The position numbers and the translations under genes were made by a program. A stretch of 61,093 bases of DNA from the IMG/VR virus record IMGVR_UViG_3300044716_000219, positions 1 to 61,093 of that record; one strand, 5' to 3'. The stretch comes from a virus. Lineage: Duplodnaviria > Caudoviricetes. Each line of letters opens with the position of its first letter. Position 1 is the stretch's first letter. The notes below the pieces were generated by a model. The model was not told the DNA's origin and did no database searches. It worked only from the letters and a program-made list of their open reading frames with translations. This document shows positions 22,749 to 59,515 of the stretch, in pieces.

Positions 22749-22869
22749 TGACAGGGCAATACATACACACATAAGACAATCCAATCATTCGGCTACCCGA
22801 TCGTTCATGCGTACACGCATCGGGGCATGCATCCAGTACGCGCCAACCTTTTCAACCACAAGGAAAATC

Positions 22870-23868
22870 ATGCGTTATTCAAATATCAAGACATCTATTG
22901 TCGAGCAGTTTCGTGCAACCAACGGACACAAGGTCGTGCCGTTCATCCTCGGTGCGCCTGGCGGTGGTAAGTCAGCCTGTGCCCGTGACATTGTTCGTGA
23001 GCTTGGCATCGAGAATGTCGTAGAGTTCACGGCTTCGCTTCGTGATCCAGTCGATGTGCTTGGCACACCTAACAACACAGGCGAGTACACACGCTGGGTT
23101 CCGCCCGAGGAGTTCTATCGCTTACGCGCTGGTGTCGGTCGTGCGGCACTCATTCTAGAGGAGTTGTCTGACGCTCAGATTCCCATGCAGAACGCCTTGT
23201 GCGGTGTTGCCTACGATCGTCGTGCGGGTCAACTACAACTGTCTGACCAACTGTTCATCATCGCGACTGGCAATCGTACCGAGGACAAGTCAGGTGCTAA
23301 TCGCATCACATCCAAGCTAGCCAATCGTACCCGTCGCTTTGACTTCCAAGAGAATGTCGATGACTGGACTGACTGGGCGTTAGACAATGACATTGATCCT
23401 GTATTGATTCAGTTCTTGCGCTTCCGCCCTGCGTTGCTGTCTGACTTCGATCCTAACCGCTTCGCCAATCCTACGCCTCGTTCGTGGGAGCGTGTCAACA
23501 TGATACCCGCATCCTTGGACAGTGGACTCTTCTTCGACAATTGTGCAGGTGAGGTCGGTGAGGGTGCCGCCGCTGAGTACACAGGCTTCCGCCGTATCTA
23601 CTTAGCGTTGCCTAACATCGAGAGCATCTTGCTTGACCCTGCTGGTGCTGATGTACCTGCTGACCCTGCGACTCTGTATGCCTTGACTGGTGCGTTGGCT
23701 CGTAAGTCTACCAAGGACAACTTCGATCGTGTATCCAAGTACTTGTCACGCATGAGCCCTGAGTTCAATGTGATGGCAACCAAGGATGCGATCAAGCTGT
23801 GTCCTCAGATCAAGTCGACTCGTGCATTCGTCGAGTGGGCTAGCAAAAATGCCGAGGTGTTAATGTGA
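22870..23868 (+). CDS. MoxR-like AAA+ ATPase
   Basis: Walker A GAPGGGKS; Walker B LILEE; ATGNR; TPRSW. Confidence 0.88.
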   Translation: MRYSNIKTSIVEQFRATNGHKVVPFILGAPGGGKSACARDIVRELGIENVVEFTASLRDPVDVLGTPNNTGEYTRWVPPEEFYRLRAGVGRAALILEELSDAQIPMQNALCGVAYDRRAGQLQLSDQLFIIATGNRTEDKSGANRITSKLANRTRRFDFQENVDDWTDWALDNDIDPVLIQFLRFRPALLSDFDPNRFANPTPRSWERVNMIPASLDSGLFFDNCAGEVGEGAAAEYTGFRRIYLALPNIESILLDPAGADVPADPATLYALTGALARKSTKDNFDRVSKYLSRMSPEFNVMATKDAIKLCPQIKSTRAFVEWASKNAEVLM

Positions 23869-24095: not shown

Positions 24096-24319
24096 AGTTA
24101 GTGTGGAGGGCTGACAGCGACTACACGCACACACTACTCAAGCAAGACACACCTACCAAAATTCCTCAAAGGATGGCGTGGATTGCTAGGGTGTTTGCTT
24201 CCAACACACCACCACATATGTGGCGAGCGCAAATCATCTCTTCACAAGAGAGAGGCGTGTTTACCTCATTAGACGAAGCCAAAGACTGGGCTAAAGCAGT
24301 CGTTCTTCTCAACCAATGA
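24092..24319 (+). CDS. Hypothetical protein
   Basis: Coupled; FTSLDEAKDWA. Confidence 0.65.
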   Translation: MKLVWRADSDYTHTLLKQDTPTKIPQRMAWIARVFASNTPPHMWRAQIISSQERGVFTSLDEAKDWAKAVVLLNQ

Positions 24320-24329
24320 AAGGCACTAT

Positions 24330-25205
24330 ATGCAACCAACTAAACTGGCAGATAAGGTAATCCTTGTCAAGCTGACACAACGCAAAGTCGCATTGACTAA
24401 ACGCGATGCATTCCTATCAGACAAGATACAACGGCAGGAGGGTGACGCATCATTGACGGTGCTTACTAAGTTGTTCAGGTCTAAGGGCAATGCCATTGCA
24501 CAGATCATGACCAAGTTCAACGAGGTGTATGCGTATCACAAGAAGCACACGCTACCCTATGTGGATGCAGGCCCTCGCATCTTGCCTAACGATCTGTACT
24601 TCGAGTACACACAAGAGACTAAGCATCTCATCGCACAGGTGGACAATCTCAAGCGCACTTACATGCCACAGTATGACCAGCTAGTGTTAGAGGATGTGAT
24701 GTATCGCAACAGTGGACACGCGGCAGGTAGGGCTAGTGTGGATGACTACCCGACAGCAGAGCAGTTCGATAGTGCCATGTCGATTGACATTCGCTTCCAA
24801 CCCATGCCTGACTCAAGACACTTCCTATTCGATCTTAGTGACGAGGACTTGCAATCGTTCCAAGCATCAGAGAGCGAGGCATCAGCGGCAATGAACGCAG
24901 ACATTCTTTCGAGGATGCTCAAGCCATTGTCAGCACTCACTCAGCGCTTGCAGGAATATCAGGGTCAGAAGGGTGAACGCTTCCACAACAGTCTTGTCGA
25001 GAATGTGATCGAAGGTTGTGACCTAGCTATGAAGTTGGCAATCAACCCATCGCACGAGTTCATCGACGAGATCAACAAGCTCAAAGCAATGGCGACTGGC
25101 TGTCTCAACACAGTCGAAGTCATCAAAGGATCAGCGAACGCTAGGCATGACGCCAAAGCCAAGCTCGAAGCAGTAGCCGCTCGTATGGCGGATTTCAATT
25201 TCTAA
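24330..25205 (+). CDS. Helical protein of the AAA/vWA cluster (DUF3150-like)
   Basis: HTLPY...GPRILP and DDYPT motifs; position. Confidence 0.6.
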   Translation: MQPTKLADKVILVKLTQRKVALTKRDAFLSDKIQRQEGDASLTVLTKLFRSKGNAIAQIMTKFNEVYAYHKKHTLPYVDAGPRILPNDLYFEYTQETKHLIAQVDNLKRTYMPQYDQLVLEDVMYRNSGHAAGRASVDDYPTAEQFDSAMSIDIRFQPMPDSRHFLFDLSDEDLQSFQASESEASAAMNADILSRMLKPLSALTQRLQEYQGQKGERFHNSLVENVIEGCDLAMKLAINPSHEFIDEINKLKAMATGCLNTVEVIKGSANARHDAKAKLEAVAARMADFNF

Positions 25206-25214
25206 GGAGGATAT

Positions 25215-25760
25215 ATGATGAGACCAACGCTTTATCAAGCATCTAGGATGCTAACAACTGCAGGTGTATCAGCGCACATTCAGTTCGACCCAACCAAGAT
25301 CACCAACCGACTCAAGAAGTCTATTCAACGGCAGGTGGCGAATGGGGTTCTCACTGGAGGCTATTCATCACACGCCACACGCATCGCCAAGTATCTGTGC
25401 AAGCAGTTTAGTGTCAAATACACAGACAACAGTTGGTATGGTATTCGTGTACCGGCTATGCCAGTAGATCATCGCGAGAAGTTTGTTGAGTTAGTTCAGG
25501 CAGACCTTGCGGCTTACCTATTAGACAACGATACATATAACCCACAATGGGATAAAGACATGGCTAACAAAGCAATCAGTTCAATTAGAGCGGGCTCTGA
25601 TACTGATGTACGAACGCACAGTAAAGAATACAGAGAGAAGCTAGCAATGCTTATTGCAAAGACTCGCACACCTGAAGAGATTAAGAAAGCGGCAGACATT
25701 GCCGCAATGCTTGACGCAGGACTTCCAATCACCATCAACCAATACAACGCAGAGGAGTAA
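25215..25760 (+). CDS. Hypothetical protein
   Basis: AAGGAGG SD. Confidence 0.75.
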   Translation: MMRPTLYQASRMLTTAGVSAHIQFDPTKITNRLKKSIQRQVANGVLTGGYSSHATRIAKYLCKQFSVKYTDNSWYGIRVPAMPVDHREKFVELVQADLAAYLLDNDTYNPQWDKDMANKAISSIRAGSDTDVRTHSKEYREKLAMLIAKTRTPEEIKKAADIAAMLDAGLPITINQYNAEE

Positions 25761-25762
25761 TC

Positions 25763-26869
25763 ATGGCAGTAACTACACTAGACAAAGCTAAAGTGTCCAT
25801 CGTGACACAGCATCCATTCTTCGCATCCATCCTTATGAAGCGACAGCTTATCGAGGATGAGACTATACCAACAGCCGCAGTAGATCAGCGCAACCAGATA
25901 TACATCAACCCAGTCTGGTTCAACACATTGTCTGTTGACGAGATCGTGTTCGTGCTAGCCCACGAGATCGGTCATGTCATCGGTCAGCATGCAACGCGCC
26001 GTGGCACTCGCAACGCTAAGAAGTGGAACATTGCAGGCGATGCTTGGATCAACGACATGCTCAAGGCATCAGGCATTGGTCAGCCAATTAATGGCTGTGT
26101 CGACATGCCCGGCTCCAAGGATGAGACAGTCGATGAGATTTACAACAAGCTCCCCGATGGTGACGGTGAAGGCCCCGGCGGTACAGGCGATGACATCATC
26201 GAGCGCGGCTCACCATTGACACCAGAAGAAGCTACACGCATTGATGCCGAAACTCGTGTTGAGATTGCACAGGCGGCTCAAGCGGCTAAGGCTCAGGGCA
26301 AGATGCCAGCGGCATTGGCTAAGATCATTGCAGACTTGATCGACCCCGGCACACCATGGCATGAGATTCTCGAGCGGTACATGACTTCGTACACTCGTGG
26401 TGACTACACATGGTCACGCCCTAACCGTCGCTTCGCTGACATTGCTTACTTACCAAGCACAGGCAAGGTTGCCGAGATGGGCGAGATCGTCGTGCAGGTC
26501 GATGTGTCTGGCTCTATCAGTCAGCGTGAGTTGGCTCATTACAACGGTCATCTGTCTCGCATCATCGAGCAGTGCAACCCCGAGCGTGTGCATGTCTTGT
26601 ATGTTGACACTGCAGTATGCAAGCATCAGGTGTTCGAGCAGGGCGAGGAAGTAACACTAGAGTTCTACTCTGGCGGCGGTACTGACATGGAGGCAGGCTT
26701 CGACTTCATCGCCAAGGAGGGTATTGACCCCGAGGTATTCGTCTGCTTGACCGATGGTTATACCGACTTCAATGTCGCCAACGCGCCAAGTTATCCAGTT
26801 TTATGGTGTATCTCTAGTGACATTGTGGCTCCTTACGGCGAGAATATCCACTTTTCACTGGAGGAATAA
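25763..26869 (+). CDS. Zincin metallopeptidase-vWA protein (DUF2201-like)
   Basis: HEIGH; MIDAS DVSGS; GGGTD; LTDG. Confidence 0.88.
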   Translation: MAVTTLDKAKVSIVTQHPFFASILMKRQLIEDETIPTAAVDQRNQIYINPVWFNTLSVDEIVFVLAHEIGHVIGQHATRRGTRNAKKWNIAGDAWINDMLKASGIGQPINGCVDMPGSKDETVDEIYNKLPDGDGEGPGGTGDDIIERGSPLTPEEATRIDAETRVEIAQAAQAAKAQGKMPAALAKIIADLIDPGTPWHEILERYMTSYTRGDYTWSRPNRRFADIAYLPSTGKVAEMGEIVVQVDVSGSISQRELAHYNGHLSRIIEQCNPERVHVLYVDTAVCKHQVFEQGEEVTLEFYSGGGTDMEAGFDFIAKEGIDPEVFVCLTDGYTDFNVANAPSYPVLWCISSDIVAPYGENIHFSLEE

Positions 26870-27019
26870 ATGGCTGACAACATCGACGACGCAATCACCG
26901 AACTGACCGAACAGTACGATGAGGTATTACAGGCATGCTACGACGCACTAGCGGAGGGCGTGTCACAAGAGCAACGCAATGCTATCAGGGAATCGATAGC
27001 AAAGCATTTAGGCAAGTAA
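26870..27019 (+). CDS. Hypothetical acidic protein, 49 aa; not in ORF track
   Basis: GGAGG SD; manual translation MADNIDDAI... Confidence 0.6.
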   Translation: MADNIDDAITELTEQYDEVLQACYDALAEGVSQEQRNAIRESIAKHLGK

Positions 27020-27065
27020 CCACGGGGCTTCGGCCCCATTCTTTTCAACCACAAAGGAAGTTATC

Positions 27066-27734
27066 ATGGCGACAGTAAACATTACAAAAGAGTTCAAAGA
27101 ACGAGTAGAGCAACGTATTCGCGGCATGCACCGCAAGGAGTTAGAGGCTGAGTTACCTAACCTTAACAAAGCCCATTCAATCGACGCCCATTACTTGTAT
27201 CACTATGGCTGTTGGGGTAAGGATTACATGCACTTAGTGCATGAGATTCCCGGAGAATGGTTAGCCAAGGTAAGCGACTCCCATGTCGAAATACACGGTA
27301 AGAATGACGACGGCAAAGATGTGTCTTGCAGTGTTCGTTTCGTTGGCATGAGCGCGTTTCAACGCCCCAAGGATAGCTACTATGGACACACTCGCTCTGT
27401 TGTGCAGTATGAACAGTTGTTAGCTATGCCCGACGTCGTAGCCGGTAGAGCCGAGGCACTTGCGGCATGGGAAGAGAACAAGCAAGTAGTATTTCTAAAG
27501 GCTAAGTGGGACAAGGTTGAGAAAGATATTCTCGAATTCCTTGGTAAGTGCAAGACACTTAATGAAGCAGTTAGATTGTTTCCCGGTGTTCGTATGTATG
27601 TACAACGCGATGACCTCGAGCGCTTAGATCGTAAGGTCGAACGCTTTAGTGAGCGTAAGAAGATTGTGGAAGAGATGGCAACCGATGAACTAACAGCAGC
27701 CGCCATCGCTGCGAGACTTGCAGGAGCAGTATGA
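27066..27734 (+). CDS. Hypothetical protein (Nmad5-like C-terminus)
   Basis: AAGGA SD; CKTLNEAVRLFP motif. Confidence 0.6.
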   Translation: MATVNITKEFKERVEQRIRGMHRKELEAELPNLNKAHSIDAHYLYHYGCWGKDYMHLVHEIPGEWLAKVSDSHVEIHGKNDDGKDVSCSVRFVGMSAFQRPKDSYYGHTRSVVQYEQLLAMPDVVAGRAEALAAWEENKQVVFLKAKWDKVEKDILEFLGKCKTLNEAVRLFPGVRMYVQRDDLERLDRKVERFSERKKIVEEMATDELTAAAIAARLAGAV

Positions 27735-37758: not shown

Positions 37759-37811
37759 GCAACTCAACGGGGCTTCGGCCCCAACTTCTCCCCCACTAAC
37801 TAGGAAATCAA

Positions 37812-38123: not shown

Positions 38124-41100
38124 ATGGATGCTCTTGAGTTCCTCCGCACAATCCTGCCCGAATACGGCATCCACTACCTGACGCTTTTTACTAAAGACGT
38201 CAATCCAAAGACGAACAAGCCTTACACGTACCACAAGTTTTACCTAAGCTTGGAAGAGATGGCGGATGCCATCCCGCACTGGGAGAATGATCCTAAGTTC
38301 GTGGCGACGTACCATGCTTGCGCGTCCTACCTAAAGCCATACATTGAAGTTGAGAAAGACGGCGAGACTCGTAAGAAGTATCGCGTCGAAGAGAACTGGG
38401 ATCGTGCTAAATCCTTTTGGATTGACATTGACTGCGGTCAAAAGAAACATGACACCGGTCAAGGCTACCTGACACAGATGGATGGCGTCAAAGCCATTGC
38501 GGCATTTGCCAAAAAGGTGGGTTTACCCCGCCCTATGATCGTGGACTCCGGTAACGGTATCCATGCGTACTGGCCATTGACCAAAGACATCAGTCACACT
38601 AAGTGGGTCATGGTTGCTAAGTGGCTCAAGTCATGCCTAGCGCACGAGGGTGTCCTAGCAGATTCGTCACGCACTGCTGATTTTGCAAGCATCTTGCGCC
38701 CTGTTGGGTCAGCAAACCGTAAGGGTGATGCCAAGGATGTGAAGGTTCGCTCGACATGCCAGCCCATTGAGCCCGCAGAATTTGCCCAAGCCCTACAAAG
38801 TTTCGTGGCTGAGAACGATGTCAAACTCATCAAGGAGTCTGTCAAGAAGACTTACAACACCGATCTGAATTCAGACCTAACGGCTCACTTGCCTACATAT
38901 CCTGACGTACCTGTAGACGCCAACGAGATGGCCAATAAATGCCTCCAAGCGGCTGCTATGCGTGACTCTAAGGGTGACGTAGGGTACGAGCCTTGGCGTG
39001 GTGTTATCGGCTTGCTTAAGTACTGTGAGAACGGCGAGACGCTGGCCGAGGAATGGAGCTCTGACCGTGACGCTACCGGCCACGATCAAGTGGACTGGCA
39101 GAACAAATACAACACATGGGAAGCTGGCCCAACACGTTGCTCATTTTTTGAGCAGCACAACAGCCCGGGCTGTGTAGGCTGTGAGTTCAAAGGCAAGGTC
39201 AACACCCCATTGGTGTTAGGTAGGGTAATCCCTATAGTCGAAGAATCTACCGCTGAGATCGTTACAGACGAAGGCGTTGTAGAGGAAGCTGCCATACCTG
39301 CTCTACCATACGGCTATGTATGGGATGGTAAATTGCTTAGCCGTCTGCTCCCGGACAAGGAGGGCGTGTTACAACCCCTGCCATTCTGTGAGAACTTGTT
39401 CTACCCGACCAGCCGTATTCGCACCGAAGATGGTACGTTTCGGTATGGCATGCGATTCCACTTGCCCGACAAGCGCATCCGCGACTTTGACATCTTAGGG
39501 GAATCAGTTGCTTCGTCGACAGACTTACTACGGGCTTTGGCTCGGTATGAGTTGACAAAGAGTAACCACAAAAACGCAGGAGACCACATGTCTGCATACT
39601 TGCTTGACCAGTTGCAAGCATTGAAGCGACGCATCGCTGAGACCAACACCCTCACAACCTTTGGTTGGCGGGATCAACACAAAGCATTCTTGCTTGGTGA
39701 CAAGCTGTTTACTAAGGGAGCCGAGCCGATTGAAGTATTGATTGGCGGCAATGCCAAAGAGAAAGCCAACACGTTTACACCCAACAACGGATCGATTGAA
39801 GGCTACGCTGAAGCCCTGAACTTTCTTTACAACCGAGAAGGTGCGACACACTGGCAGTACACGATCTGCGCAGGCTGGGGTTCTTTGTTGGCGCATCATT
39901 GCGAGGACTTGTACAAGGGGCTCATTTTGGCGTTGCAGGGTGGAAACACCGCTCGCGGTAAGACGACTGTCTGCCATGCAGCACTTGCTGCGTTTGGCAA
40001 TCCTGAGAAGCTGACTTTAGGTTCCAAGGATGGTTTTACTACCAACGCTTTGTGGGCGACGCTTGGGGTGTTCAACAACATTCCGGTGCTTGCTGACGAG
40101 ATGACGAGCATTGACCCTGCAATTTTTAGTGATGTGGCTTATGGCGTGTCGAACGGCAAAGAAAAAGTTCGCATGACTTCTAAGAGCGGGAGTGTGGTGT
40201 TTGCGAAGTCTGCTGAATGGCGGCTTAACTTGTACGTCACTGGCAACAAAGATTTCCACGGCACACTGGCTGCTCACCAAGCCAACTCGCAAGCTGAAGC
40301 TGTTCGTCTAATCCAAGTCAACATCGATCGGTATCCTCCGCTGGTATTGGCTGACCGTTCTCTGTACCCTGAAGGCGAATCTGGCGACACCGCTTGGAAC
40401 GCTGCCTCTGCATTGGTTGCTGCCGAACACATTAAACGCATGACACAGAACAGTGGCCATGCCGGTGCTGCCATGATTAAGTACATCTTGGATAACGAGG
40501 CATCGGTTGCCAAGGCTATGACGGATATGATTACCCGCTTCACGCAGGTTCTCCCAAATCCCAAGTACCGGTTCTACCGCGCTCATAGTGCGTGTACGAT
40601 TGTTGCTGCTCAGATCGCCAAGAAGTTGGGCATCATTGATTTTGATGTCAAAGAGCTGTATGCATTTACAGTTAACTTGATTGTCGAACTGGCCGACTCG
40701 GTCATGGAAAGTAACTCCATCTCATCAGAGGATGCATTCTCTAGTGTGGTCAGCTACCTTGCCCCGCGCATCATTACAACCACAGAGTACCGTGACAAGC
40801 GCGACGGTAGAGGCCCTGAGTCTCCACGCACTCGTATCATGGGTGAAGTGGCAGGACGGTATGTGCTTGGTTCAGCAAACCATAAAGAGCACGCCGGTCA
40901 CTTGATCTTGTCACAGAAAGAAGTACGCGACTGGTGTATGAAACACCGAATGGATTATCCTGCGCTGATAAGTTCCTTGCAGAAGGAGGGCGCATTGGTG
41001 AAGCAGGGTGAGAAGTTTACGCTGACTCGAGGTACAGACTACCCGATGGTACAGCAGCGATGCATTATTGTGGACTTACTTAAGCTCGACAAAGACGCAG

Positions 41101-41162
41101 TAACTCCTGCATTAACCCTAGTCTCTAATCAATTTGACGGAGACGCAGTTGGGGATGTATGA
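38124..41162 (+). CDS. Primase-helicase (RepB/AEP-like primase, Zn finger, DUF927-type helicase)
   Basis: WIDID and SGNGIHAYW; CVGC; GGNTARGKTT; LADE. Confidence 0.85.
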   Translation: MDALEFLRTILPEYGIHYLTLFTKDVNPKTNKPYTYHKFYLSLEEMADAIPHWENDPKFVATYHACASYLKPYIEVEKDGETRKKYRVEENWDRAKSFWIDIDCGQKKHDTGQGYLTQMDGVKAIAAFAKKVGLPRPMIVDSGNGIHAYWPLTKDISHTKWVMVAKWLKSCLAHEGVLADSSRTADFASILRPVGSANRKGDAKDVKVRSTCQPIEPAEFAQALQSFVAENDVKLIKESVKKTYNTDLNSDLTAHLPTYPDVPVDANEMANKCLQAAAMRDSKGDVGYEPWRGVIGLLKYCENGETLAEEWSSDRDATGHDQVDWQNKYNTWEAGPTRCSFFEQHNSPGCVGCEFKGKVNTPLVLGRVIPIVEESTAEIVTDEGVVEEAAIPALPYGYVWDGKLLSRLLPDKEGVLQPLPFCENLFYPTSRIRTEDGTFRYGMRFHLPDKRIRDFDILGESVASSTDLLRALARYELTKSNHKNAGDHMSAYLLDQLQALKRRIAETNTLTTFGWRDQHKAFLLGDKLFTKGAEPIEVLIGGNAKEKANTFTPNNGSIEGYAEALNFLYNREGATHWQYTICAGWGSLLAHHCEDLYKGLILALQGGNTARGKTTVCHAALAAFGNPEKLTLGSKDGFTTNALWATLGVFNNIPVLADEMTSIDPAIFSDVAYGVSNGKEKVRMTSKSGSVVFAKSAEWRLNLYVTGNKDFHGTLAAHQANSQAEAVRLIQVNIDRYPPLVLADRSLYPEGESGDTAWNAASALVAAEHIKRMTQNSGHAGAAMIKYILDNEASVAKAMTDMITRFTQVLPNPKYRFYRAHSACTIVAAQIAKKLGIIDFDVKELYAFTVNLIVELADSVMESNSISSEDAFSSVVSYLAPRIITTTEYRDKRDGRGPESPRTRIMGEVAGRYVLGSANHKEHAGHLILSQKEVRDWCMKHRMDYPALISSLQKEGALVKQGEKFTLTRGTDYPMVQQRCIIVDLLKLDKDAVTPALTLVSNQFDGDAVGDV

Positions 41163-41163
41163 T
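41134..41163 (+). promoter_or_regulatory. Sigma70-like promoter of candidate sRNA
   Basis: TTGACG (41134-39)-18 bp-TATGAT (41158-63). Confidence 0.6.
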
Positions 41164-41169
41164 TGCCAC

Positions 41170-41242
41170 GCTAGTTGCCATGACTAGTTCCTTTTCGTGG
41201 TTGAAAAGACGAACCCCCGGCGTAACAACCGGGGGTTTTTTT
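41170..41242 (+). ncRNA. Candidate multi-target antisense sRNA against early-gene RBS regions
   Basis: Promoter, two hairpins, terminator; reverse complement resembles the leaders at 22848 and 27040. Confidence 0.7.
41212..41242 (+). terminator. Rho-independent terminator at the convergence of the two arms
   Basis: AACCCCCGG-8 nt-CCGGGGGTT with 7-T run. Confidence 0.9.
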
Positions 41243-41378
41243 ACTTCTTACCTTTGGCTAAGCACTTACCAACGGCTGCGCACTTACCGGGCATCTTGCA
41301 GCCAGCGCATGGTTTGAAAGGTGCAGCTTTTTTGCCTGCGGGTTTGGCGGGGGCCATCATCATTTTCTTGCCGTACAT
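41241..41378 (-). CDS. Small basic Cys-rich protein, 45 aa; not in ORF track
   Basis: GGAG SD; MYGKKMMMAPAKPAGKKAAPFKPCAGCKMPGKCAAVGKCLAKGKK. Confidence 0.7.
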   Translation of the reverse strand: MYGKKMMMAPAKPAGKKAAPFKPCAGCKMPGKCAAVGKCLAKGKK

Positions 41379-41397
41379 AATAATCTCCAATCAAGGG

Positions 41398-41631
41398 TTA
41401 ACGAAAGTTCGCGGTTTTTGCAGCAATCTTTTTGGGTTGAGCTACAAACTGTTTGCCTTGCGCTTTACCTGCACGCTTGGCCCGTGTCGTTGCTGCGTAC
41501 TCAGCAGGACTCAATGATTTTATAGCAGCTTCAGGCAAATAGCGCTCACCAGTTTTACTGGATGGCTTGCCTGACTTGGTACGCCACTTCTGGTCTGTCC
41601 AGTCTTTAAGTGATTTCTGAGAGGCTTTCAA
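41398..41631 (-). CDS. Small basic protein (DUF5872-like)
   Basis: SLKDWTDQKWRTKSGK...GERYLP. Confidence 0.7.
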   Translation of the reverse strand: MKASQKSLKDWTDQKWRTKSGKPSSKTGERYLPEAAIKSLSPAEYAATTRAKRAGKAQGKQFVAQPKKIAAKTANFR

Positions 41632-41816
41632 TCTCTATACCCCCCACCGGCTGCCTTGTACTTCTTGGCAACGAGTTGTGCTTTACGGGCAGACCATTGA
41701 CCTGCACCAGTGCCTTGCGTAGCAGCTGCTTTTACCTGAGACACAATCCGCTTGCGCAGTTCAGGTTTGGTGTAGTTGCCAGCCGCATTGACTGTGGATT
41801 TAGACTTGGTAGCCAT
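41628..41816 (-). CDS. Small basic protein (DUF5872-like)
   Basis: YTKPELR...GQWSARKAQ...GGGY. Confidence 0.75.
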   Translation of the reverse strand: MATKSKSTVNAAGNYTKPELRKRIVSQVKAAATQGTGAGQWSARKAQLVAKKYKAAGGGYRD

Positions 41817-41817
41817 G

Positions 41818-42072
41818 TCAGCAGTTCCATGCGCGCAATGATTTATTGATGCGGGAGTTCGGGTCTTTAGCCGTTTTCTCGCTTGTGAGCTTTTTCTTCA
41901 TGCCTTCCATGCGGGCACAGAACGAGTCACGTCGTGGGCCGCCCTCTGGTTGGGGAGCTTTGAGCCCCGGCTTGCCGGGATTTGCTTTGTTGTAAGAGGC
42001 ACGCCCCTTAGCGTTGAGCCCGCCCTTTTCGGACTTGCCCTCTTTACGTTGCCATGCTGGTGTCTTAGCCAT
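41818..42072 (-). CDS. Small basic protein (DUF6321-like)
   Basis: AAGGAG SD; AWQRKEGK..GGLN...SFCARM. Confidence 0.75.
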   Translation of the reverse strand: MAKTPAWQRKEGKSEKGGLNAKGRASYNKANPGKPGLKAPQPEGGPRRDSFCARMEGMKKKLTSEKTAKDPNSRINKSLRAWNC

Positions 42073-42082
42073 ACTAATCTCC

Positions 42083-45000
42083 TTAGTCAATCTGCTCTGC
42101 AATCTTAGTCTCACGCTTGCGCTGCTCTTGTGGTGCGCGCAACAAACTCGACAGTGGCTGAGGTTTTAAGTCATTACGCCTACGGGCTTCTTGCAGATTC
42201 TTCCACGATTCGCGTGCTTTGGCCATACCCTCGCTGTCTTGTTCGCGATATGCCTTGGCAAACTGATTTTTAATTTTAGTCGAACGCTCAGTAAAGTTCT
42301 TTTCCAAATCCAAAGCAGATTGGCGAGCTTGATAAGTCTCAGCAACCTTGGCAGATGGCAGACCCATGGCAGCAAACACTTGGCCTACTTGGGAAACATC
42401 ATCCGCACTTAGGATCACATCGCCGTTACGACGTGTCAAGCCTTCACCAGCAATGCGTCCTGCTTTGAGCATGTCGCTGATACCCTTTGGCATTGTCTGC
42501 TCGAGGCCGCGATATATATCTCCATTTGCCATAAGGCCAAGGCCGTCTACCATACGAGCGGTCATACCACCGGCTGCACCGCCAGCAATAGTACCGATAG
42601 CTTGAGCAACTCCAGCTTGGGTAGTCAAGTCAAGATCAGCAAATGGTGCAATTGAAAGCATGTTGCCAGCACCAATCTTGCCGGACAAATCTACACCGAT
42701 CAGTGTTGGCGTGCCGCGCATCACAAGCTGCGACCACTCTGGGCCAAGCTCTTTACGCATCCACTCAGTTAAATCAAACGGCTCGTCTTCGTCACCCAAG
42801 AAGAATCCTGCAAGCGCTGCAACGGCGGCGTAGCCGGGTAGACCCATCGCGCCAGCGAAGATTCCGGTGTGAGCAAGGGAGAAGCCCAGTGTACGCAATG
42901 CTGCCTTACGCTCTTTGGGATCGCGAATGTCGTTAAGTAATTTGACGTAGAAACCGATCTGTACCAACTGAAACTTGCGGAACTGCAAAGCAATCTTACC
43001 GAAATTGCTGTTGAAGATTCTCGGTGCATTCATCGACGTGTAGTCGCCGTGCGTATCTTGCAGAATGCCGGCAGCGTATTCGATGGCGGCTTGTTTGTTG
43101 CCTTTCGTTCTAGCCAGCTCAAGACGGTAGGCAGCCATGGCGGTAGACAAACGGTTAATCGCTTCAGTCTTTTGGATGGCAAGGCGCATAGCCTTATTGA
43201 CACGCTGTGCCGACTGGCTGAGCTTGCTATCTGCTTCGACCTTATATTCGTTGATCTCGGTTGCCAAACCAATGTCAATACTTCCACGCTTGACCAAAGT
43301 GTCAATCGCTTCACGCACGTCATCAGGCACTTGGGTAAAGTCAAACTGTTGACCGAACAGCTTAGTGTTTTTAAACAACGGGCCAAGTTCAGAGTACGCC
43401 GTCCACAATGCAGTGCCGACTTTGTTGTAGTCGTGACGACCTGCCATAGCAGGTACAGACATCATGAATGGCTGTGTCAAGTTCTGAATGTAATAGCCGG
43501 GGCTCGTTGCCAAGAAATACTTGGATGACAAGTTCGTCAGCTTTTCCACCCATGGGGTGACGTTGTAGTTTAGAGACTCAACGTAGCGTGTGCTTAGTTC
43601 GTCAAACAGTTCTGTCCGGCGAGTCACATCCCCCTTCTTGGACTCTTTGCGCATAGCTTGCAGAGACTCTTGAATCTCAGGACTAAACTCAATCGAAGCC
43701 AAGAAGTTGGCATCAGCGCGACCTTGTGTTGTGAAGGACTGAAGCATATCTACTTCACCGGAAATACCACGGCGACGCATCTCAGACTTACGGGCGCTGT
43801 CTTCTGCCAAAGTCTCAAGGTACAACTGACTAATCAAATTGTAGACCTTAGCGTTAGCAGTACCTTCGTTGGCGTCTACGGTTGCACGCAGTTTTGTCAA
43901 TGCAGGCAATAAAGCCTCACTGTTGAACTTGTCCATGGCTTCGGCGCGTTTGATAATGCCTGTCGACAAGCCGGGGAACTCTTCGCCAATTTTTGCTTCT
44001 AAGTTGCGGGCTTCCCACTTGGAGTCAACAAAGGACACTTGGTAGTGCTCTGGGTCTTTTTCCAGTTCTTTGATTCGCTTAGTATCTTTGGCGTTCACAG
44101 CAGCAACATATTCGTCAGATCGACTGACAACTGCCCAAGGGCCAGTACGCTTAATTGGCGCATAGGGTAAACCCTCGCGAATCTTGAACAGAGTTTTAAA
44201 GCGCTCTAGTGTGTTGGCTTTCTCGGTCTTCAGTTCGGTTTCCGTCTTTGTGTCACCAGCTTGTTTAGCAATTGCGATAAGCGCGTCGTACTCGGAGGTA
44301 GCAGAATTTAGAACAGTCTGCTTTTTCTCTGACAGCATAGTATTACCGTGCTGAAACACCGCTTTGACAAACGCCTGAGCTTTAGGCTTTAAAGCGTTAA
44401 ACATGGCAGCCATTGCAGGATCGGCTTTCAACGAGCCGCTGTCATAACCCCACTTGGCTTGGCGTGTAGATTCAAGCAAGAAATCATTAACAGTACCGGG
44501 GCCTCGGCCTTTGTGTTCGTCTTCGATCGTGGCATACATATCAGCGATCTTCTCGATGCGGCGCTCACGCTCGCTAGCAGCGGCTGTTCTGTTGGCTAAA
44601 GCTTTGGCAAAACGTTCAGCAGGAAGGCCCGCTTTGGTGGCACGAGCAACCAGATCACTGGTGAATACCACGTAGTCCAAACCTCGGCCCATGATGTCAC
44701 CAAGACCACCAACAATGTTAGTAGCCGGCTGTCTTAGCTGCTGGGGTAGCTTGTTAATGTTGCGATTGATTGCACCTTGATTTGGCGCGTTCTTCCCAAA
44801 CTGCATACGTTGACGGTCAGCCGCCGCTTGAGAGCCGACGCGGAAAATATTCTGGTCGTTAAACACAACGATGTTGCGGGTTGGGTTGCCTAACCGAATG
44901 ACTTTTCGTTTAAGGCGTTCGACATCTTGGCGAACTTGTTCTGCTTGAAACTCCGCAGCTGTCCTAGCATCTACCGCATTCAACCACGTCTTGCGAGCGT

Positions 45001-48000
45001 ATTCTTTCTGCTCTGGAGGAGCTTTATCTTGCAAAGACTCCCACTTATCGGCTTCTTTGGTAGCTTTCTCAACCGCAAGTTCTTTTTCCCGCAGAACTTC
45101 TTGCAGTTGCTGTAGTTTGATTTGCGTTTGGAATTGATTGCCGCGACTGTTTTGATCTAAGAACTTAAGAGCTGGAATGCCGAGCTTTTCATCCAAGTAC
45201 TTGGACACGATTTCCTTAAAGCCGGTGTTAGCCAATCGCTTGTTGTAGTCCTCAACGTCAAACTCTTCACTGACAGCACCAGTTCGCACTTCAACAAAAC
45301 CAAGCCCGCGATAAAACTCATCGCCGGTCATGTCAGCGAGATCAGCACCAACTTGGTCTTCAACGTCTTCGCGCAAAATATCTGATATGGACGCTTCAAT
45401 TTTTGCCAAGATGGCTGGTTGTTTAGACAACGGCTCATCCCAGTTAAGAACATCTTCATCAGCAATGGGAATGTCTACACGCATGAGGCTGCCTTTAGGG
45501 GCAACTGTAGTTTCTGGGGTAACAGAAAACTTTGCGGGATCAAGCGACTTTATGGCAGCAAGGTCTTCACTTGAAGTTTCAATGGTGCTTGTAAGGACAT
45601 CGACATAACCCTGCTCTGGGCCAGAGGGCTTTGAGCTTGACCGTTTTTCAGCTAAAGTTCTTTTTGCAGACTCTAAAACAGTCTTCTTCTTTGCAATATA
45701 ACGTTCTAGGTCGGCGCTTGCTTCTTTAATAGCTTCAGCAGCGGTTAGCCCACGCTCGAACATTAACTTGTACACTGGAACAGTTGCAGCGTTTTGTTCA
45801 GGGCTAGCACGTCCTATTGCGACGCCGTCGTAAAGGGCTTTTGCTTTAGTAGTTACTGTTTTGCGTTCCACGTCAGCTGACCAGTAGCCCTTGGCAATTC
45901 CAACACTTTGTGCAAAGTAAGAACCCCAGCCATAAGCCTGAGCGCCTTCGCCAGTGCCCATAAAGTCATGGTTAAATCTACGGAAAGCTGCTGCAGTTCC
46001 GTGCCACGTGCCATTAATTTCCAAACGAGCCGCACCAAACGCCAAGTTAACAACGTCTTGAGCGGTTAAAGATTCTGGTTTGAAACCGAGCTTACGAGCG
46101 GCAATCTTGAACGCAGCCCACAACGTACGGAACCAGTCCATTAGAGGGCCTGACTCTTTGGAAACTGCTGTAGGATCAATGCCAGCATCGATGGCTTCTT
46201 CGAGGAAGTAAGCTAAGAGTTCGTTGTTTTGCTGAGTTTCAGCTGTGCCAGCGCTTTCAAAACGTTTCGTTGCGCGTTGCGCTAATACAGATTCAATAGA
46301 ACCATCTTTCTTCTTAGCCCAGCTTTGTAACTGCTCGATTAATTTGTTGTAGGTTTGTTTTGTAAGTAGATTTTCCAAACCAAGGTGAGCCCCAACCTCG
46401 TGCATGAACTTGGCACGTCCAGAACCCCGATTAATTCGATCTGCGATCAAATACGCACGGCCATCTGTGGCAACGCCGTAGGCATTCTCTTTTTGAATTG
46501 CCTCACCAACCGCTCTAACTTTTGAATCGGGGTCGTTGAGTAGATCGTCTATGGTGTTAACCACCATGAGTTTGCGACCGGGTATGTCGGCACGGATGAA
46601 ATCTTTTAACTCTGCCAGCAGTTGTTTTGCCGTGTATGGTTTCTTGGCTTTGCCGTCTTTACCAAACAGCATGTTCTCTTCTTTGGCAACCACAGTGCGA
46701 TCAGCAGCAGCCTGTGTTGTAGCTGACTTGACAGGCGTAGAAACTGTCTTCGTCACTGGCTGTACACCCTCACGCACGAGGCGGTCATCAGGGACATTTC
46801 CGGTGATAAAGTCATTGACTGTATTCTGTGCATCAGGAACCACGAACAACTTAGAGCCATCCATGTTGTCGCCGTACTTGGTAATCAAGTCACGGTAAGT
46901 TTCTTTGTCAACGTTGATACAGCCAAATGAGTAACGAGAATCGCCAGCGGCTTCGCTTTTTAAAGCAGCAGCACGTTGGGGAGCGTCTTTTTCTTTTAGC
47001 CAGACAGAATGCATAAATGTCACAACTGCGTCCGGGTCTTCCAAAGCAAACACTTTGCCGAAGTCGTAGTCACCTGCAGTTACTGCTGCGCTACCGCCTT
47101 TAGCTGCATCAATTATTTTGATGCCGAACAAACCGGCTGGAGTCACGCGGTTTTGTGGCAGGTCGTTGTTACCGATATACAAGTCACCTTTAGCCAGACC
47201 AAACAAAGACTTCTTTTGCAGAACAAAAGAACCGTCGGCTTTAAAAACAAAGATACGACCGCTTGGTTTATCGGCAATCGTAATAAACTTGTTACCAATT
47301 TTGTCTTTCAAAGCAGGAACTAAACGGGCATAAGCCTGTTTGCCAGCGTCAGACATCATGGCAGCTTCGGCAGGAACCTCGGCCAACACTTGTTGCGTGG
47401 TTACTTTTGTCTCTTGTGGAATCACCATAAATGATTCAATTTGAGAGATTGCTCCGGGGTTAAAAATCATGGCCACCGAAAGCACACCTGCATGCAACGT
47501 TTTAATAATGTCGCGAATAGCACCTGCCACCGCTTCTGCACCCTTGGTAGCGTACAGAACAACATCTTCTTTAACCTTGGCTAAGAACTCAGCGCTATCT
47601 CGTTTAAGGTTGTAGTGTTTTTCAAGCCGGTTAACTTGCGGTGCAGGCAAAGCAGCAACACGCGGGCCAACGGTTTCCTCAATCACGCGAGCTTCAACAT
47701 CAATAGTCACTGGCTCTTTGGTCAGCAACTGCTGCAAGCCCATCTCTTTAGCAACTACGGGTTTACCATTGGTACGAACAGCCAAATCGGTCAGGTATTC
47801 CTGCTCAAGCTTAGTCAACTGCTCGTATGGAACCAAACCGGGTGTCTTATCAGAAAGGCTCTCCCACAGGGCTCTGCCTCTATCTACTTGGCCTTTGGCT
47901 TGGCCTTGGGTTTGACCTTTGCCGGCAGGCTTTTCGGTACGCCGTACTTGGCCGCCCACTCCTTGGCCAGCTTGGGTTTCTGGCTGAACAGGTACGACTG

Positions 48001-57875: not shown

Positions 57876-59515
57876 AGCTGTTTGAGTTCCTCAACAGATG
57901 TCGCGATAGCCACGTCTTGCACTGGATTTGTACCCTCGAGCTCAATCTGGAATTCAAATGCGCGGTAACCGCTAGGCAATCTAAACGGATTGCGGTCTGC
58001 AACGGTCTGCGTGTGCTTAAGATCGCCGTCTGCGTACAAACGGAATGTGACGGGGTAAGCATTGGCTACCACCACGGCAGCAGCAAAGTTAATCGGTGAG
58101 CCCTGACGGAATGGCTTGCTACGTGAGCGATAGGTCAGCGATGTACCAGTGTCCCACTTGCCGATGTTTGTACCTGTTAAAACATACAGCTGATCTTTCA
58201 GACTGTCGAAGTACATGGCAGAGTAGCCAGTGTCAAGGAAATAAATACCGCCGCCATTGGGATCAATGAGGAAACCTTTGCGGCCAGAGCCGTCGTCGTA
58301 ACTACCTAAGTAGAAACCCTCATACATCTTACCGATGATGCTGCTTGGAACCAGAGCTTGCCAGTCTTCGCGGAGCATGACGCCATTAGTAATAACACGA
58401 GCGCCGCCATCGCCAAACCAGCACAAACCGTCTTCAGAGGCCCAAGCCACGCCATTACCCATGCTCACAACAGAACGTGCTGAAACGCAGGCTTGTTGTA
58501 TTTCTAAGGGACGTTGATCCATGCCATCAGGGGTTGAGCCTTGCACGAGTAGGGGGCGGCCAGTTGTCAGCACCAAGAGACTTTGCCCAAACACACCGAG
58601 GCCAACAGGTTTGCTGTCTGGTGGAATGATCTCGTAGTTTGCAGGCCAAGCGTATGGTGTGTAGGGCTCGCAGATGCGTACCGAGTTACCCGAGATACCA
58701 CTCATCATTCCATTCCACATTGCTGTGAGGTTTGACAGGGTTGGCTCAGTAATACTCGTCGCGCCACCAGTAGGAACACCGGGTGCTGGGAACCACAAGT
58801 TAGTCGCTAGGTTTTCACCAAGGGTTTGATTATCATCAGTAGTTGAGGACGTAGCAAGCGCAATCTCGCGCAGGAAGTAAAAGTCTGTACCAGTCGAGCT
58901 ACCCTGTGTGCGGTAGATGCGGATCGTGGCAATGTCGTAGTTGCCCGATGGCACAGAACTAAAGCCAGAAATAGCAGTCGAGCCTAGGTTGTCCCGGGTG
59001 ACTAGGGCGCTCACAGGTGACGGAGCAGATTCCCAGCCAAGGCTGTTAACGTATGTGTAGACGTAGTAGTAATACTCAATGACTGGCGATGTTGCACCAG
59101 AGTTTGTGCCCGCCACTGTAGGAGCGCCAGCTGGAGCTGGAATGCCCATAGGACGGTTAGCTGTAGGGTATGGTGCTGTGGCCAAACCGATCACATTGTT
59201 AGTGAACTTGGGAGCGCCGTCGCCAGTGTAGTACGTCTGTTCGGTTGTATCAGCAGCATCAAAGCCACGAACAACATTGACTGCGGTAGTCCAGCTTAGC
59301 CAGTACTGAGCGTCGGAGTCTACGTCACGACCCATGCGGTAAATGGTTTGACGGCCAGAAGGAACTGTAGCTACGGTTGCTGGGGATTTCCAAGCACGCA
59401 AGTCGCCACGCCCGGGCTTTTGGTTGCGGGAGACGACACCTACTGTGTCGGGCAACATAACGGGGTTGATCGCTCGGTTCTCACCGGCAAAGCCCCCATA
59501 GCGAATAACGGCCAT
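57872..59515 (-). CDS. Tail nozzle / stabilisation protein
   Basis: Beta-rich 547 aa; YVYTYV..GWESAPSP; position. Confidence 0.7.
   Translation of the reverse strand: MAVIRYGGFAGENRAINPVMLPDTVGVVSRNQKPGRGDLRAWKSPATVATVPSGRQTIYRMGRDVDSDAQYWLSWTTAVNVVRGFDAADTTEQTYYTGDGAPKFTNNVIGLATAPYPTANRPMGIPAPAGAPTVAGTNSGATSPVIEYYYYVYTYVNSLGWESAPSPVSALVTRDNLGSTAISGFSSVPSGNYDIATIRIYRTQGSSTGTDFYFLREIALATSSTTDDNQTLGENLATNLWFPAPGVPTGGATSITEPTLSNLTAMWNGMMSGISGNSVRICEPYTPYAWPANYEIIPPDSKPVGLGVFGQSLLVLTTGRPLLVQGSTPDGMDQRPLEIQQACVSARSVVSMGNGVAWASEDGLCWFGDGGARVITNGVMLREDWQALVPSSIIGKMYEGFYLGSYDDGSGRKGFLIDPNGGGIYFLDTGYSAMYFDSLKDQLYVLTGTNIGKWDTGTSLTYRSRSKPFRQGSPINFAAAVVVANAYPVTFRLYADGDLKHTQTVADRNPFRLPSGYRAFEFQIELEGTNPVQDVAIATSVEELKQL

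What the first reader, a model, noticed from the sequence alone, without database searches (positions are those of the whole stretch)
41134..41242. Candidate trans-acting sRNA antisense to a shared RBS motif in many early genes
Seen: TTGACG-18-TATGAT promoter at the end of the primase gene, then GCUAGUUGCCAUGACUAGUUCCUUUUCGUGGUUGAAAAGAC, then a terminator. It folds into hairpin 1 (CUAGU/ACUAG, loop UGCCAUG, anti-start codon), an anti-SD stretch UUCCUUUU, and hairpin 2 (CUUUUC/GAAAAG, loop GUGGUU). Its reverse complement CTTTTCAACCACGAAAAGGAACTAGTCATGGCAAC aligns over ~33 nt with the leader of gene 27066 (CTTTTCAACCACAAAGGAAGTTATCATGGCGAC), including a 13-nt exact match from 27040. It also has a 12-nt exact match at 22848, the AAA ATPase leader. 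Established: phage antisense regulators exist (P1 C4, P4 CI, P22 sar). Inference: one RNA silences translation of a dispersed early/replication regulon, acting as an early-to-late switch or an immunity/dormancy repressor. I know of no description of this element.
Basis: partly seen in the sequence, partly recalled or inferred. Interest (0 to 1): 0.92.

Follow-up and report, generated by a model that had tools for sequence, protein, structure and literature searches.

The report
Conserved phage small RNA mirroring gene starts
Right after its primase gene this uncultured lake-water phage, like dozens of relatives, keeps a roughly 73-base RNA gene whose sequence mirrors the ribosome landing sites of several of the phage's own genes, so it probably turns their translation down, though nobody has yet seen the RNA.

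Summary
Promoter TTGACG-18-TATGAT (41134-41163), two hairpins and a strong terminator (to 41242) are there. The reverse complement matches the leader of gene 27066 (30 of 34 positions; 0 of 500 shuffles reach its score).

The element is a conserved plus-strand unit, found once per locus just after the primase gene in 48 of 79 sources, down to about 26% primase identity. Evidence for the plus strand:
- Hairpin 1 covaries, and G.U pairs make it fold better on the plus strand (93.5% against 72.2% of cells paired).
- The promoter is kept at nucleotide level across changing amino acids.
- The 18-codon minus-strand ORF is not conserved.

Across 10-12 clades the RNA core fits its own genome's leaders of four gene families better than those of other clades. 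Three control families show nothing.

Best reading (about 0.55): a trans-acting anti-ribosome-site sRNA, closest in kind to c4 of P1/P7 but not a member of that family. "Many early genes" shrinks to 3-5 leaders. Expression and repression are untested, and no RNA data exist. This scan found the same family before on other DNA (e1-6241703, e1-6281271). No paper describing it turned up in three full-text searches.

The parts
41134..41163 (+). Sigma-70-type promoter TTGACG-18-TATGAT inside the last primase codons. The -10 box spans the final Val codon, the stop TGA (41160-41162) and the next T.
   Evidence: 10 of 12 matches; 24 of 44 related loci score at least 10 of 12 at the same place, against 0.09% of control windows inside the primase genes; 27 of 52 distinct relatives end GTA-TGA-T, 3 end ATA-TGA-T and 1 ends TTA-TGA-T, although GTA is only 23% of Val codons.
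41168..41243 (+). Predicted small RNA of about 72-76 nt. The start is inferred 5-8 nt after the -10 box and the end lies in the U-tract.
   Evidence: Fold. Covariance model R1 matches 41166-41243 at 79.7 bits. The start and end are inferred, not observed.
41170..41188 (+). Hairpin 1. The stem is GCUAGUU/GACUAGU. The loop holds CAU, complementary to a start codon, within the conserved UUGCCAUG.
   Evidence: 5 of 6 pairs change on both sides across 44 sequences; 53 G.U cells; 93.5% paired on + against 72.2% if read on -.
41189..41208 (+). CU-rich anti-Shine-Dalgarno stretch UCCUUUU running into hairpin 2 (CUUUUCG-UGGU-UGAAAAG). GUGGUUGAAAAG is complementary to the leader 12-mer.
   Evidence: The motif CUC-CUU is kept in nearly all 44 aligned relatives. 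Hairpin 2 loses one base on both arms in L008/L011/L013.
41211..41242 (+). Intrinsic terminator: a 10-pair stem plus U7. It also reads as a weaker terminator for the converging minus-strand late genes.
   Evidence: Terminator helix is 99.7% paired, and 5 of its 7 pairs change on both sides.
27040..27073 (+). Strongest predicted target: leader, SD and start of gene 27066 (222 aa, no known family). On its own the leader folds into an SD-sequestering hairpin with loop CAACCAC.
   Evidence: score 41, 0 of 500 shuffles; interaction energy -31.4 kcal/mol against -6.2 +/- 2.8, 0 of 40 shuffles; no family at significant E-value.
22848..22872 (+). Predicted target: leader of the ATPase gene (start 22870).
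   Evidence: phrog_1297; 2 of 60 shuffles; -16.5 kcal/mol, 1 of 40 shuffles. The leader changes with the RNA in clades A, B and B2.
24300..24336 (+). Predicted target: leader of gene 24330 (291 aa, unknown function).
   Evidence: score 27, 9 of 60 shuffles.: -16.3 kcal/mol, 0 of 40 shuffles; clade permutation P = 0.0006.
25722..25768 (+). Weaker predicted target: leader of gene 25763 (DUF2201 VWA/metallopeptidase-like) with TCAACCA.
   Evidence: -19.6 kcal/mol, 2 of 40 shuffles. P = 0.075.
41118..41172 (-). 18-codon minus-strand ORF (MATSVAIIHPQLRLRQID). Listed only to record that it is rejected as a gene.
   Evidence: It has 6 codons in G015 and 4 in G020. The start is lost in L033 (ACG) and G017 (AAG), and there is none in G012, G013, G016 and G019.

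Best explanation
A small non-coding RNA gene sits at the 3' end of the primase gene. It is the last unit of the plus-strand (early/replication) arm of a complete 61-kb phage genome from lake water.

A host-type promoter buried in the last primase codons starts an RNA of about 73 nt that ends at a strong intrinsic terminator. Read-through primase mRNA ends with the same sequence.

The RNA carries the mirror image of a ribosome landing site:
- CAU in the loop of hairpin 1 (anti-start codon);
- the 3' arm of hairpin 1 (anti-spacer);
- a CU-rich anti-Shine-Dalgarno stretch;
- GUGGUUGA in and after the loop of hairpin 2, complementary to the UCAACCAC tag that several plus-arm leaders carry just upstream of their SD.

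Inferred mechanism: the RNA pairs in trans with these leaders and covers the SD and AUG so that 30S subunits cannot bind. Contact probably begins loop to loop, because the 27066 leader shows CAACCAC in a hairpin loop. The strongest target is gene 27066. The ATPase gene 22870, gene 24330 and gene 25763 are weaker targets. As the RNA accumulates, translation of that gene block would fall.

Shown here: the anatomy, conservation, covariation, strand, and complementarity that changes together with the leaders. Inferred only: transcription, pairing in the cell, and the direction and timing of the effect.
For: 1. Anatomy: promoter, three hairpins and terminator.
2. Conservation: model R1 finds one plus-strand hit with E < 0.05 in 48 of 79 sources (795 kb, both strands), always just after the primase gene. 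This includes loci with 26-27% primase identity. Of 80 unrelated viral loci that hold the same anti-ribosome-site string (702 kb), 1 gives a hit.
3. Structure: 96.9% of cells are paired against 81.9% in shuffles, 10 of 13 pairs change on both sides, and the covariation score is 0.447 against 0.190 (0 of 500 shuffles).
4. Strand: helix 1 is paired in 93.5% of cells on the plus strand and 72.2% if read on the minus strand. In L036/L040 the terminator has a U-tract only on the plus strand (read).
5. Promoter kept at nucleotide level.
6. No conserved ORF on either strand.
7. Targets in this genome.
8. Change in step with the leaders. In the record of L014 the element and both leaders read AACAC instead of AACCAC. 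In a clade-level permutation of RNA-leader pairings (one genome per clade), P = 0.0002 for g27066, 0.0006 for g24330, <0.0002 for g36447 and 0.03 for the ATPase. P is 0.2-0.65 for g30731, polA, snf2 and primase. The pattern is the same with the window's clade left out.
Against: - No RNA evidence of any kind: no listed run is on record as RNA.
- Outside this genome the best complement of each relative's element is only modestly above shuffles (0-39 of 60 shuffles reach the top hit). The 34-nt match to 27066 is not kept even in the 86% relatives.
- The co-variation may partly reflect a genome-wide 'dialect' of ribosome sites, which any sequence derived from a gene start would track. The control families with no signal mostly lack free-standing leaders.
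- In clades A and B the anti-SD stretch is partly paired inside hairpin 2.
- Clades were set by eye, gene starts by a heuristic, and duplexfold ignores accessibility.
- Alignment A4 was fitted to the model.
Confidence: 0.55

Rival explanations
1. A real, conserved plus-strand small RNA, but one whose job is not to pair with the phage's own leaders. It might act on host mRNAs through the CU-rich anti-SD stretch, or bind or titrate a protein such as Hfq, ProQ, S1 or a phage RNA-binding protein.
For: The most conserved parts (the UUGCCAU loop and CUC-CUU) are generic anti-ribosome-site strings that would fit many mRNAs. Own-genome matches in relatives are modest. There is a sub-threshold likeness to the beta-proteobacterial anti-hemB candidate RNA (21.8 bits, E 0.002-0.003).
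Against: The variable part of the RNA changes together with particular phage leaders. A host-directed or protein-binding RNA need not do that. The host is unknown, so host targets could not be scanned.
Confidence: 0.17
2. A passive 3'-end module of the primase mRNA (stabilising hairpins plus terminator). It would have arisen from an inverted copy of a gene-start cassette, and the complementarity would be a relic with no trans function.
For: The minus strand reads as terminator, leader, SD, ATG GCA AC, just like the start of gene 27066, which also follows a terminator hairpin. The long match is genome-specific, as a recent copy would be. The junction is a mosaic hot spot.
Against: A relic would decay. 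Instead the unit is kept down to 26% primase identity with covarying stems and an own promoter kept at nucleotide level through changing amino acids. Its core keeps tracking the leaders in 10-12 clades.
Confidence: 0.12
3. A promoter-proximal terminated leader (attenuator or antitermination site, as at lambda PR'-tR' with its short 6S transcript) that gates the plus-strand genes lying behind the terminator.
For: In G011, G012, G013, G014, G015, G017 and L073 a small plus-strand gene (76 aa in G014, begins MKL..) starts right after the terminator. In G002, L033, L035 and L075 a plus-strand insert follows.
Against: In this window and in clade B nothing on the plus strand follows: the next genes converge on the minus strand. 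In G014, G015 and G017 only one or two small genes lie before the giant minus-strand gene. Yet the element is equally conserved in both layouts.
Confidence: 0.06
4. The shared TCAACCAC/TCAACAC string is a DNA operator for a phage DNA-binding regulator. It would work in either orientation, and all sites would change together when the protein's specificity changes.
For: It explains the change in step at three dispersed sites, one of them inverted. In the element the string lies between inverted CTTTTC/GAAAAG arms.
Against: The sites sit 2-12 nt upstream of the SD, inside the mRNA leaders and not at promoters. Likeness to leaders runs on through SD, spacer and ATG. The family-wide constant is the anti-SD and hairpin 1, not this string. 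G.U pairs point to RNA.
Confidence: 0.05
5. The minus strand is the functional one: a ribosome site and an 18-codon gene (or a translated mini-ORF) read after the late-gene terminator, perhaps the toxin of a type I toxin-antitoxin pair.
For: There is a good SD (AAAGGAA) 5 nt before ATG at 41172-41170 on the minus strand. Two differences between the window and L004 are synonymous in that frame.
Against: ORF length varies (18, 6 and 4 codons). The start is lost in L033 (ACG) and G017 (AAG), and there is none in G012, G013, G016 and G019. Codons 5-6 vary freely (V/S/R/E, A/V/E). The peptide is not hydrophobic. It lies downstream of a terminator with no promoter. Helix 1 fits the minus strand worse.
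Confidence: 0.03

Closest known systems
c4 antisense RNA of phages P1 and P7, and the related CI RNA of P4 (Rfam family 'C4 antisense RNA'; family name recalled)
   Same: A phage-encoded RNA of about 75 nt acts in trans on the phage's own mRNA. Complementary stretches are thought to lie in loops, and it pairs around a ribosome binding site to block translation (review PMC12197685, passages seen).
   Different: No match to any Rfam family at gathering score, and C4 is not among the 22 matches with E up to 10. c4 is cut from a longer transcript and serves immunity of a temperate phage (recalled). This RNA has its own promoter inside a primase gene. No integrase or repressor domain was found in the 25 plus-arm ORFs that I ran against Pfam. 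Several dispersed leaders are predicted targets.
Start-associated sequences (SAS) of cluster K mycobacteriophages (Pope et al. 2011, PMC3203893; passages seen)
   Same: A short tag shared by the ribosome-site regions of many non-structural genes, nearly always in one orientation, with a single copy on the complementary strand in four genomes. The authors left open a phage- or host-encoded RNA or protein partner.
   Different: The sequence is different (13-mer including AGGAG) and so are the hosts. No partner RNA was described there. Here the inverted copy lies inside a promoter-to-terminator unit with covarying structure.
3'-end-derived sRNAs with a promoter inside the upstream coding region (DapZ, MicL of enterobacteria; recalled, no paper read here)
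   Same: Same gene layout: the promoter is embedded in the last part of a protein gene, the terminator is shared with that gene's mRNA, and the seed lies in the short unique body.
   Different: Those are chromosomal, Hfq-dependent and target host mRNAs. There is no sequence or model similarity, and Hfq dependence cannot be tested here.
anti-hemB motif (Rfam RF02837; Weinberg et al. 2007, PMC1950547, passages seen)
   Same: Same three-hairpin layout ending in a terminator, with a pyrimidine-rich stretch. It is the best Rfam match on the plus strand over the full model length (41168-41244).
   Different: 21.8 bits against a gathering score of 49.5, so this is not a member. In the model the CU-rich stretch is the loop of hairpin 1, whereas here it lies between hairpins. 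anti-hemB is itself only a candidate ncRNA.
Cis-antisense phage RNAs: OOP of lambda, sar of P22 (recalled)
   Same: Short phage RNAs that end at a terminator next to a convergent gene and act by pairing.
   Different: They overlap their target gene on the opposite strand. Here the opposite-strand ORF is not conserved and the matching leaders lie 14-18 kb away.

Membership tests
Rfam C4 antisense RNA (P1/P7 c4, P4 CI) | Match to the family covariance model at or above its gathering score | tested here: not met
   0 families at gathering score over the whole window. C4 is not among 22 matches with E up to 10 in 41100-41300.
Rfam RF02837 anti-hemB | Match at or above the gathering score of 49.5 bits | tested here: not met
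   21.8 bits, E 0.002-0.003, full-length on the plus strand.
Trans-acting base-pairing sRNA (generic kind) | Own promoter and intrinsic terminator bounding a short unit | tested here: met
   Promoter kept in relatives. Terminator helix 99.7% paired with double changes. These are sequence predictions only.
Trans-acting base-pairing sRNA (generic kind) | No conserved protein-coding frame | tested here: met
   The minus-strand ORF has 18, 6, 4 or 0 codons and its start is lost in several clades. The plus-strand AUG has no SD and its frame varies (read).
Trans-acting base-pairing sRNA (generic kind) | Conserved secondary structure supported by compensatory changes | tested here: met
   Caveat: A4 was fitted to the model. 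The MAFFT alignment A2 gave the same helix 1 with 3 pairs changed on both sides.
Trans-acting base-pairing sRNA (generic kind) | Complementarity to distant targets beyond chance, kept in relatives | tested here: met
   (0 of 500 shuffles). Weak for single relatives taken alone.
Trans-acting base-pairing sRNA (generic kind) | The RNA is made, and it changes target expression | not testable with these tools
   No RNA run holds the phage. The two runs labelled RNA-Seq are contigs, probably DNA, of relatives.
3'-end-derived sRNA with internal promoter (DapZ/MicL type) | Promoter inside the upstream coding region and terminator shared with that mRNA | tested here: met
   The -35 and -10 boxes lie in primase codons. 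The only terminator after the primase stop is the one that ends the unit.
Cis-antisense regulator (OOP, sar, type I antitoxin) | A conserved target gene overlapping on the opposite strand | tested here: not met
   The minus-strand ORF is not conserved. The overlap with the primase 3' end is on the same strand.

The most novel reading that the evidence does not exclude
This would be a core, family-wide 'anti-ribosome-site' riboregulator of a large group of uncultured freshwater and marine podophages. One promoter-to-terminator RNA co-evolves with the phage's own dialect of gene starts. As it accumulates, it would shut off translation of a middle-gene block (ATPase, VWA-like protein, gene 27066, gene 36447 homologues). 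The same logic, a shared start tag plus one inverted copy, may explain long-unexplained tags such as the SAS of cluster K mycobacteriophages.
Probability: 0.4. Interest if true: 0.75.

Novelty: new member of a known kind. Interest (0 to 1): 0.6.

Why it matters
Very few phage-encoded RNAs are known to control the phage's own translation, and the known ones come from temperate coliphages. This is a candidate that can be followed through dozens of uncultured lake and marine phages, with covarying structure, a promoter written into the end of a protein gene, and targets that change with it.

If it works as inferred:
- RNA-level timing of gene expression would be a conserved part of the programme of a widespread environmental phage group that has no RNA polymerase of its own.
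- It would give a concrete, testable partner for 'start-associated' sequence tags.
- The case shows that a ribosome-site-like string on the 'wrong' strand after a terminator can mark an sRNA gene.

Tried and rejected
- Minus-strand 18-codon gene or type I toxin: rejected.
- Phage RNA-polymerase promoter as the meaning of the leader tag: no RNAP match in the large proteins scanned, and the tag lies too close to the SD.
- 'Unidirectional relatives' making this a late promoter: G014, G015 and G017 have only one or two small plus-strand genes before the giant minus-strand gene.
- Pairing with the primase gene's own ribosome site (as in the icaR 3'UTR, recalled): no excess.
- Duplexfold scan of the whole genome: background is high (-30 to -38 kcal/mol). 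Only 27066 stands out. The next hits (18419-18478 and 59384-59443, both minus) lie inside genes.
- Rfam: nothing at gathering score.
- Expression: no RNA holder listed. The two runs labelled RNA-Seq (X19, X20) are contigs, probably DNA, of relatives and say nothing on expression.
- Cultured model: the only phage record with a related primase is Pseudomonas phage Rollin (25.5% identity). It has overlapping genes after the primase and no model hit.
- Collection scan for the anti-ribosome-site string: unspecific, because its complement is a common gene start. Used only as a negative control.
- Function of gene 27066: no family or solved relative at significant E-value.
- Lifestyle: no integrase or repressor domain in the 25 plus-arm ORFs run against Pfam.
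- Literature: searches found no description. Only listings were seen, apart from passages of PMC12197685, PMC1950547 and PMC3203893.

Sources left out:
- From: L005, L006, L011, L012 and L013 (same element sequences as L004 or L008), and L063 and L079 (contig ends inside the primase).
- From: L056, L058, L059 and L068 (same scores as L055 and L054).
Full report
**What the window is.** The window is a complete virus record of 61,093 bp with direct terminal repeats. Weak DNA matches point to marine HMO-2011- and CRP-type podophages. Eighteen lake-water metagenome runs from separate studies hold at least half of the sampled words of a 9.5-kb stretch.

Genes on the plus strand run from about 19.4 to 41.2 kb. 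They include an ATPase, a DUF2201 VWA-like protein, a family A DNA polymerase, an exonuclease, an SNF2 helicase and a 1012-aa DUF927 primase. The structural genes converge on the minus strand. No RNA polymerase turned up. The finding lies exactly at the convergent junction, between the primase stop (41160-41162) and the last minus-strand gene (41241-41390).

- TTGACG-18-TATGAT at 41134-41163 scores 10 of 12.
- RNA 41168-41243 folds into hairpin 1 (41170-41188), hairpin 2 (41191-41208) and a 10-pair terminator with U7, at -30.7 kcal/mol. None of 200 shuffles is as stable.
- CTTTTCAACCAC occurs exactly three times in the genome, at 22848+, 27041+ and 41197-.
- The reverse complement aligns with 27040-27073 at 30 of 34 positions plus a 2-nt gap. 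The score is 41, against 24.2 +/- 2.1 (maximum 35) in 500 shuffles.
- The ATPase leader (score 29) is reached by 2 of 60 shuffles, and the leader of gene 24330 (score 27) by 9 of 60.

**Which strand matters.** Read on the minus strand, the element looks like a gene start: terminator, leader, AAAGGAA, ATG GCA AC, and an 18-codon frame. It resembles the start of gene 27066, which also follows a terminator hairpin. Comparison decides against that reading.

I fetched 12 and then 80 loci around related primases and 20 whole related records. Four lines of evidence favour the plus strand:
- The minus-strand frame has 18 codons here, 6 in G015 and 4 in G020. Its start is ACG in L033 and AAG in G017. 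There is no start in G012, G013, G016 and G019. Its fifth and sixth codons vary freely.
- The plus-strand unit is conserved. A covariance model built from 17 sequences (A2, R1) gives one plus-strand hit with E < 0.05 in 48 of 79 sources, always just after the primase gene. These include loci whose primase is only 26-27% identical. As a control, 80 unrelated viral loci that contain the same anti-ribosome-site string gave 1 hit in 702 kb.
- On 44 aligned hits, 96.9% of cells are paired (81.9% in shuffles). Ten of 13 pairs change on both sides, and the covariation score is 0.447 against 0.190 (0 of 500 shuffles).
- Helix 1 holds 53 G.U cells. It is paired in 93.5% of cells on the plus strand but only 72.2% if read on the minus strand.

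That alignment was fitted to the model. The plain MAFFT alignment gave the same helix, with 3 pairs changed on both sides.

**An own promoter.** At the same place, 24 of 44 loci have a promoter-like site scoring at least 10 of 12, and 29 score at least 9. In control windows inside the primase genes the figures are 0.09% and 1.3%.

The -10 box is kept through changes of the encoded amino acid. The last codon is GTA in 27, ATA in 3 and TTA in 1 of 52 distinct relatives, each followed by TGA and T. Yet GTA is only 23% of valine codons in ten genes of this phage. More distant lineages have other promoter-like sites at the same position, such as TTGTGC-18-TATCAT (read). The sequences are related, so these counts are not independent events, but several lineages differ in the promoter's actual letters.

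**Targets.** In this genome the net interaction energy (cofold minus monomers) was compared with 40 shuffled cores for each leader:

| Leader | Energy (kcal/mol) | Shuffles reaching it |
|---|---|---|
| gene 27066 | -31.4 (shuffles -6.2 +/- 2.8) | 0 of 40 |
| gene 24330 | -16.3 | 0 of 40 |
| ATPase | -16.5 | 1 of 40 |
| gene 25763 | -19.6 | 2 of 40 |
| primase | -9.7 | 3 of 40 |
| genes 30731, 36447, polA, snf2, 25215, 37812 | not distinguishable | 5 to 36 of 40 |

The 27066 leader alone folds into a hairpin that sequesters its SD and shows CAACCAC in the loop, opposite GUGGUU in hairpin 2 of the RNA. TCAACCA lies in 5 of 38 candidate plus-arm leaders, where 0.35 are expected.

**Change in step with the leaders.**
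- In the record of L014 (primase 66% identical) the element and the leaders of the 27066 and ATPase homologues all read AACAC where this genome reads AACCAC.
- The ATPase leader follows the RNA through three states: UUUUCAACCAC, CCUCAACAC and UCUCAACAC. One genome (G009) is off by a base.
- I took one genome per clade (10-12 clades, set by eye) and permuted which RNA goes with which leader. Own-genome pairing is better than permuted pairing for g27066 (P 0.0002), g24330 (0.0006), g36447 (<0.0002) and the ATPase (0.03). It is marginal for g25763 (0.075) and absent for g30731, polA, snf2 and primase (0.2-0.65). Leaving out the window's own clade gives the same pattern (means).

**What speaks against the reading.**
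- Taken one genome at a time, relatives show only modest matches (0-39 of 60 shuffles reach the best hit).
- The 86% relatives keep a 14-nt seed to the 27066 leader, not the 34-nt match.
- The co-variation may partly be the element tracking a genome-wide dialect of gene starts (for example AGGAGCUAACAUG in several clades).
- The control families mostly lack free-standing leaders.
- No RNA data exist.

**Rivals.**
- A passive relic of an inverted gene-start cassette does not fit the depth of conservation, the covarying stems or the kept promoter.
- A terminated leader gating downstream plus-strand genes fits some relatives but not this genome or clade B, where nothing follows on that strand.
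- A DNA operator would explain the concerted change, but not the likeness running through SD, spacer and AUG, nor the G.U pairs.
- A host-directed or protein-binding role for the RNA cannot be excluded.

**Comparison with what is known.**
- The closest known kind is the c4 RNA of P1/P7 (passages of PMC12197685). This element is not a member of that family: no Rfam family reaches its gathering score.
- The best sub-threshold match is anti-hemB at 21.8 of 49.5 bits (motif described in PMC1950547).
- The gene layout is that of 3'-end-derived sRNAs with an internal promoter (recalled).
- A telling parallel is the start-associated sequence of cluster K mycobacteriophages. That tag sits at many non-structural gene starts and has a single copy on the other strand. 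Its authors left open an RNA or protein partner (PMC3203893).
- Three full-text searches found no description of this element.
- This scan met the same family before on other DNA (e1-6241703, followed up, and e1-6281271). Their reading agrees with mine.

**Verdict.** This is a new family of a known kind of regulator. I put about 0.85 on a functional plus-strand RNA element and about 0.55 on trans-acting repression of the phage's own leaders. Interest is 0.6.

Noticed in passing
window 27023-27062: Gene 27066 is preceded by a GGGGCTTCGGCCCC terminator hairpin whose U-tract (TTCTTTTC) runs into the shared leader tag. The leader then folds into an SD-sequestering hairpin with loop CAACCAC. The gene would therefore depend on terminator read-through and on hairpin opening.
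   Followed up: partly
window 37769-37782: The same GGGGCTTCGGCCCC hairpin recurs before gene 37812. It is a second copy of this terminator-like module inside the plus arm.
   Followed up: no
window 22870-27734: The leaders that carry TCAACCA head a contiguous block: ATPase (phrog_1297), gene 24330, the DUF2201 VWA/metallopeptidase-like gene 25763, and gene 27066. This looks like a MoxR/VWA-type module of unknown role.
   Followed up: partly
L010 (G002), L033, L035, L075, just after the terminator: Relatives carry plus-strand inserts directly behind the terminator, each with a promoter-like TTGTCA..TA box and a small gene. Others (G011, G012, G013, G014, G015, G017, L073) have a 76-aa MKL.. 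gene there. The junction is a mosaic hot spot.
   Followed up: partly
window 41390-41824: One contig of run X20 joins 41389 to 41825 with 14 other letters between. A relative therefore lacks the two small minus-strand genes 41398-41816 (phrog_14910, phrog_17747).
   Followed up: no
window 42083-50866 (-): The 2927-aa protein matches a DarB-like antirestriction family over its last 680 residues or so (phrog_10089, E 4.6e-62).
   Followed up: no
leaders of related genomes: Free-standing leaders in this phage group are G-poor and built of CA/CT units (tcaatcaatca, ctcactcactca, actaactaa) before the SD. Several clades share the start AGGAGCTAACATG across unrelated genes, a genome-specific 'dialect' of gene starts.
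   Followed up: partly
L168 (Pseudomonas phage Rollin): This is the only record in the phage collection with a related primase (25.5% identity over 97%). The primase is annotated as hypothetical, and overlapping small genes follow it, not the RNA unit.
   Followed up: yes
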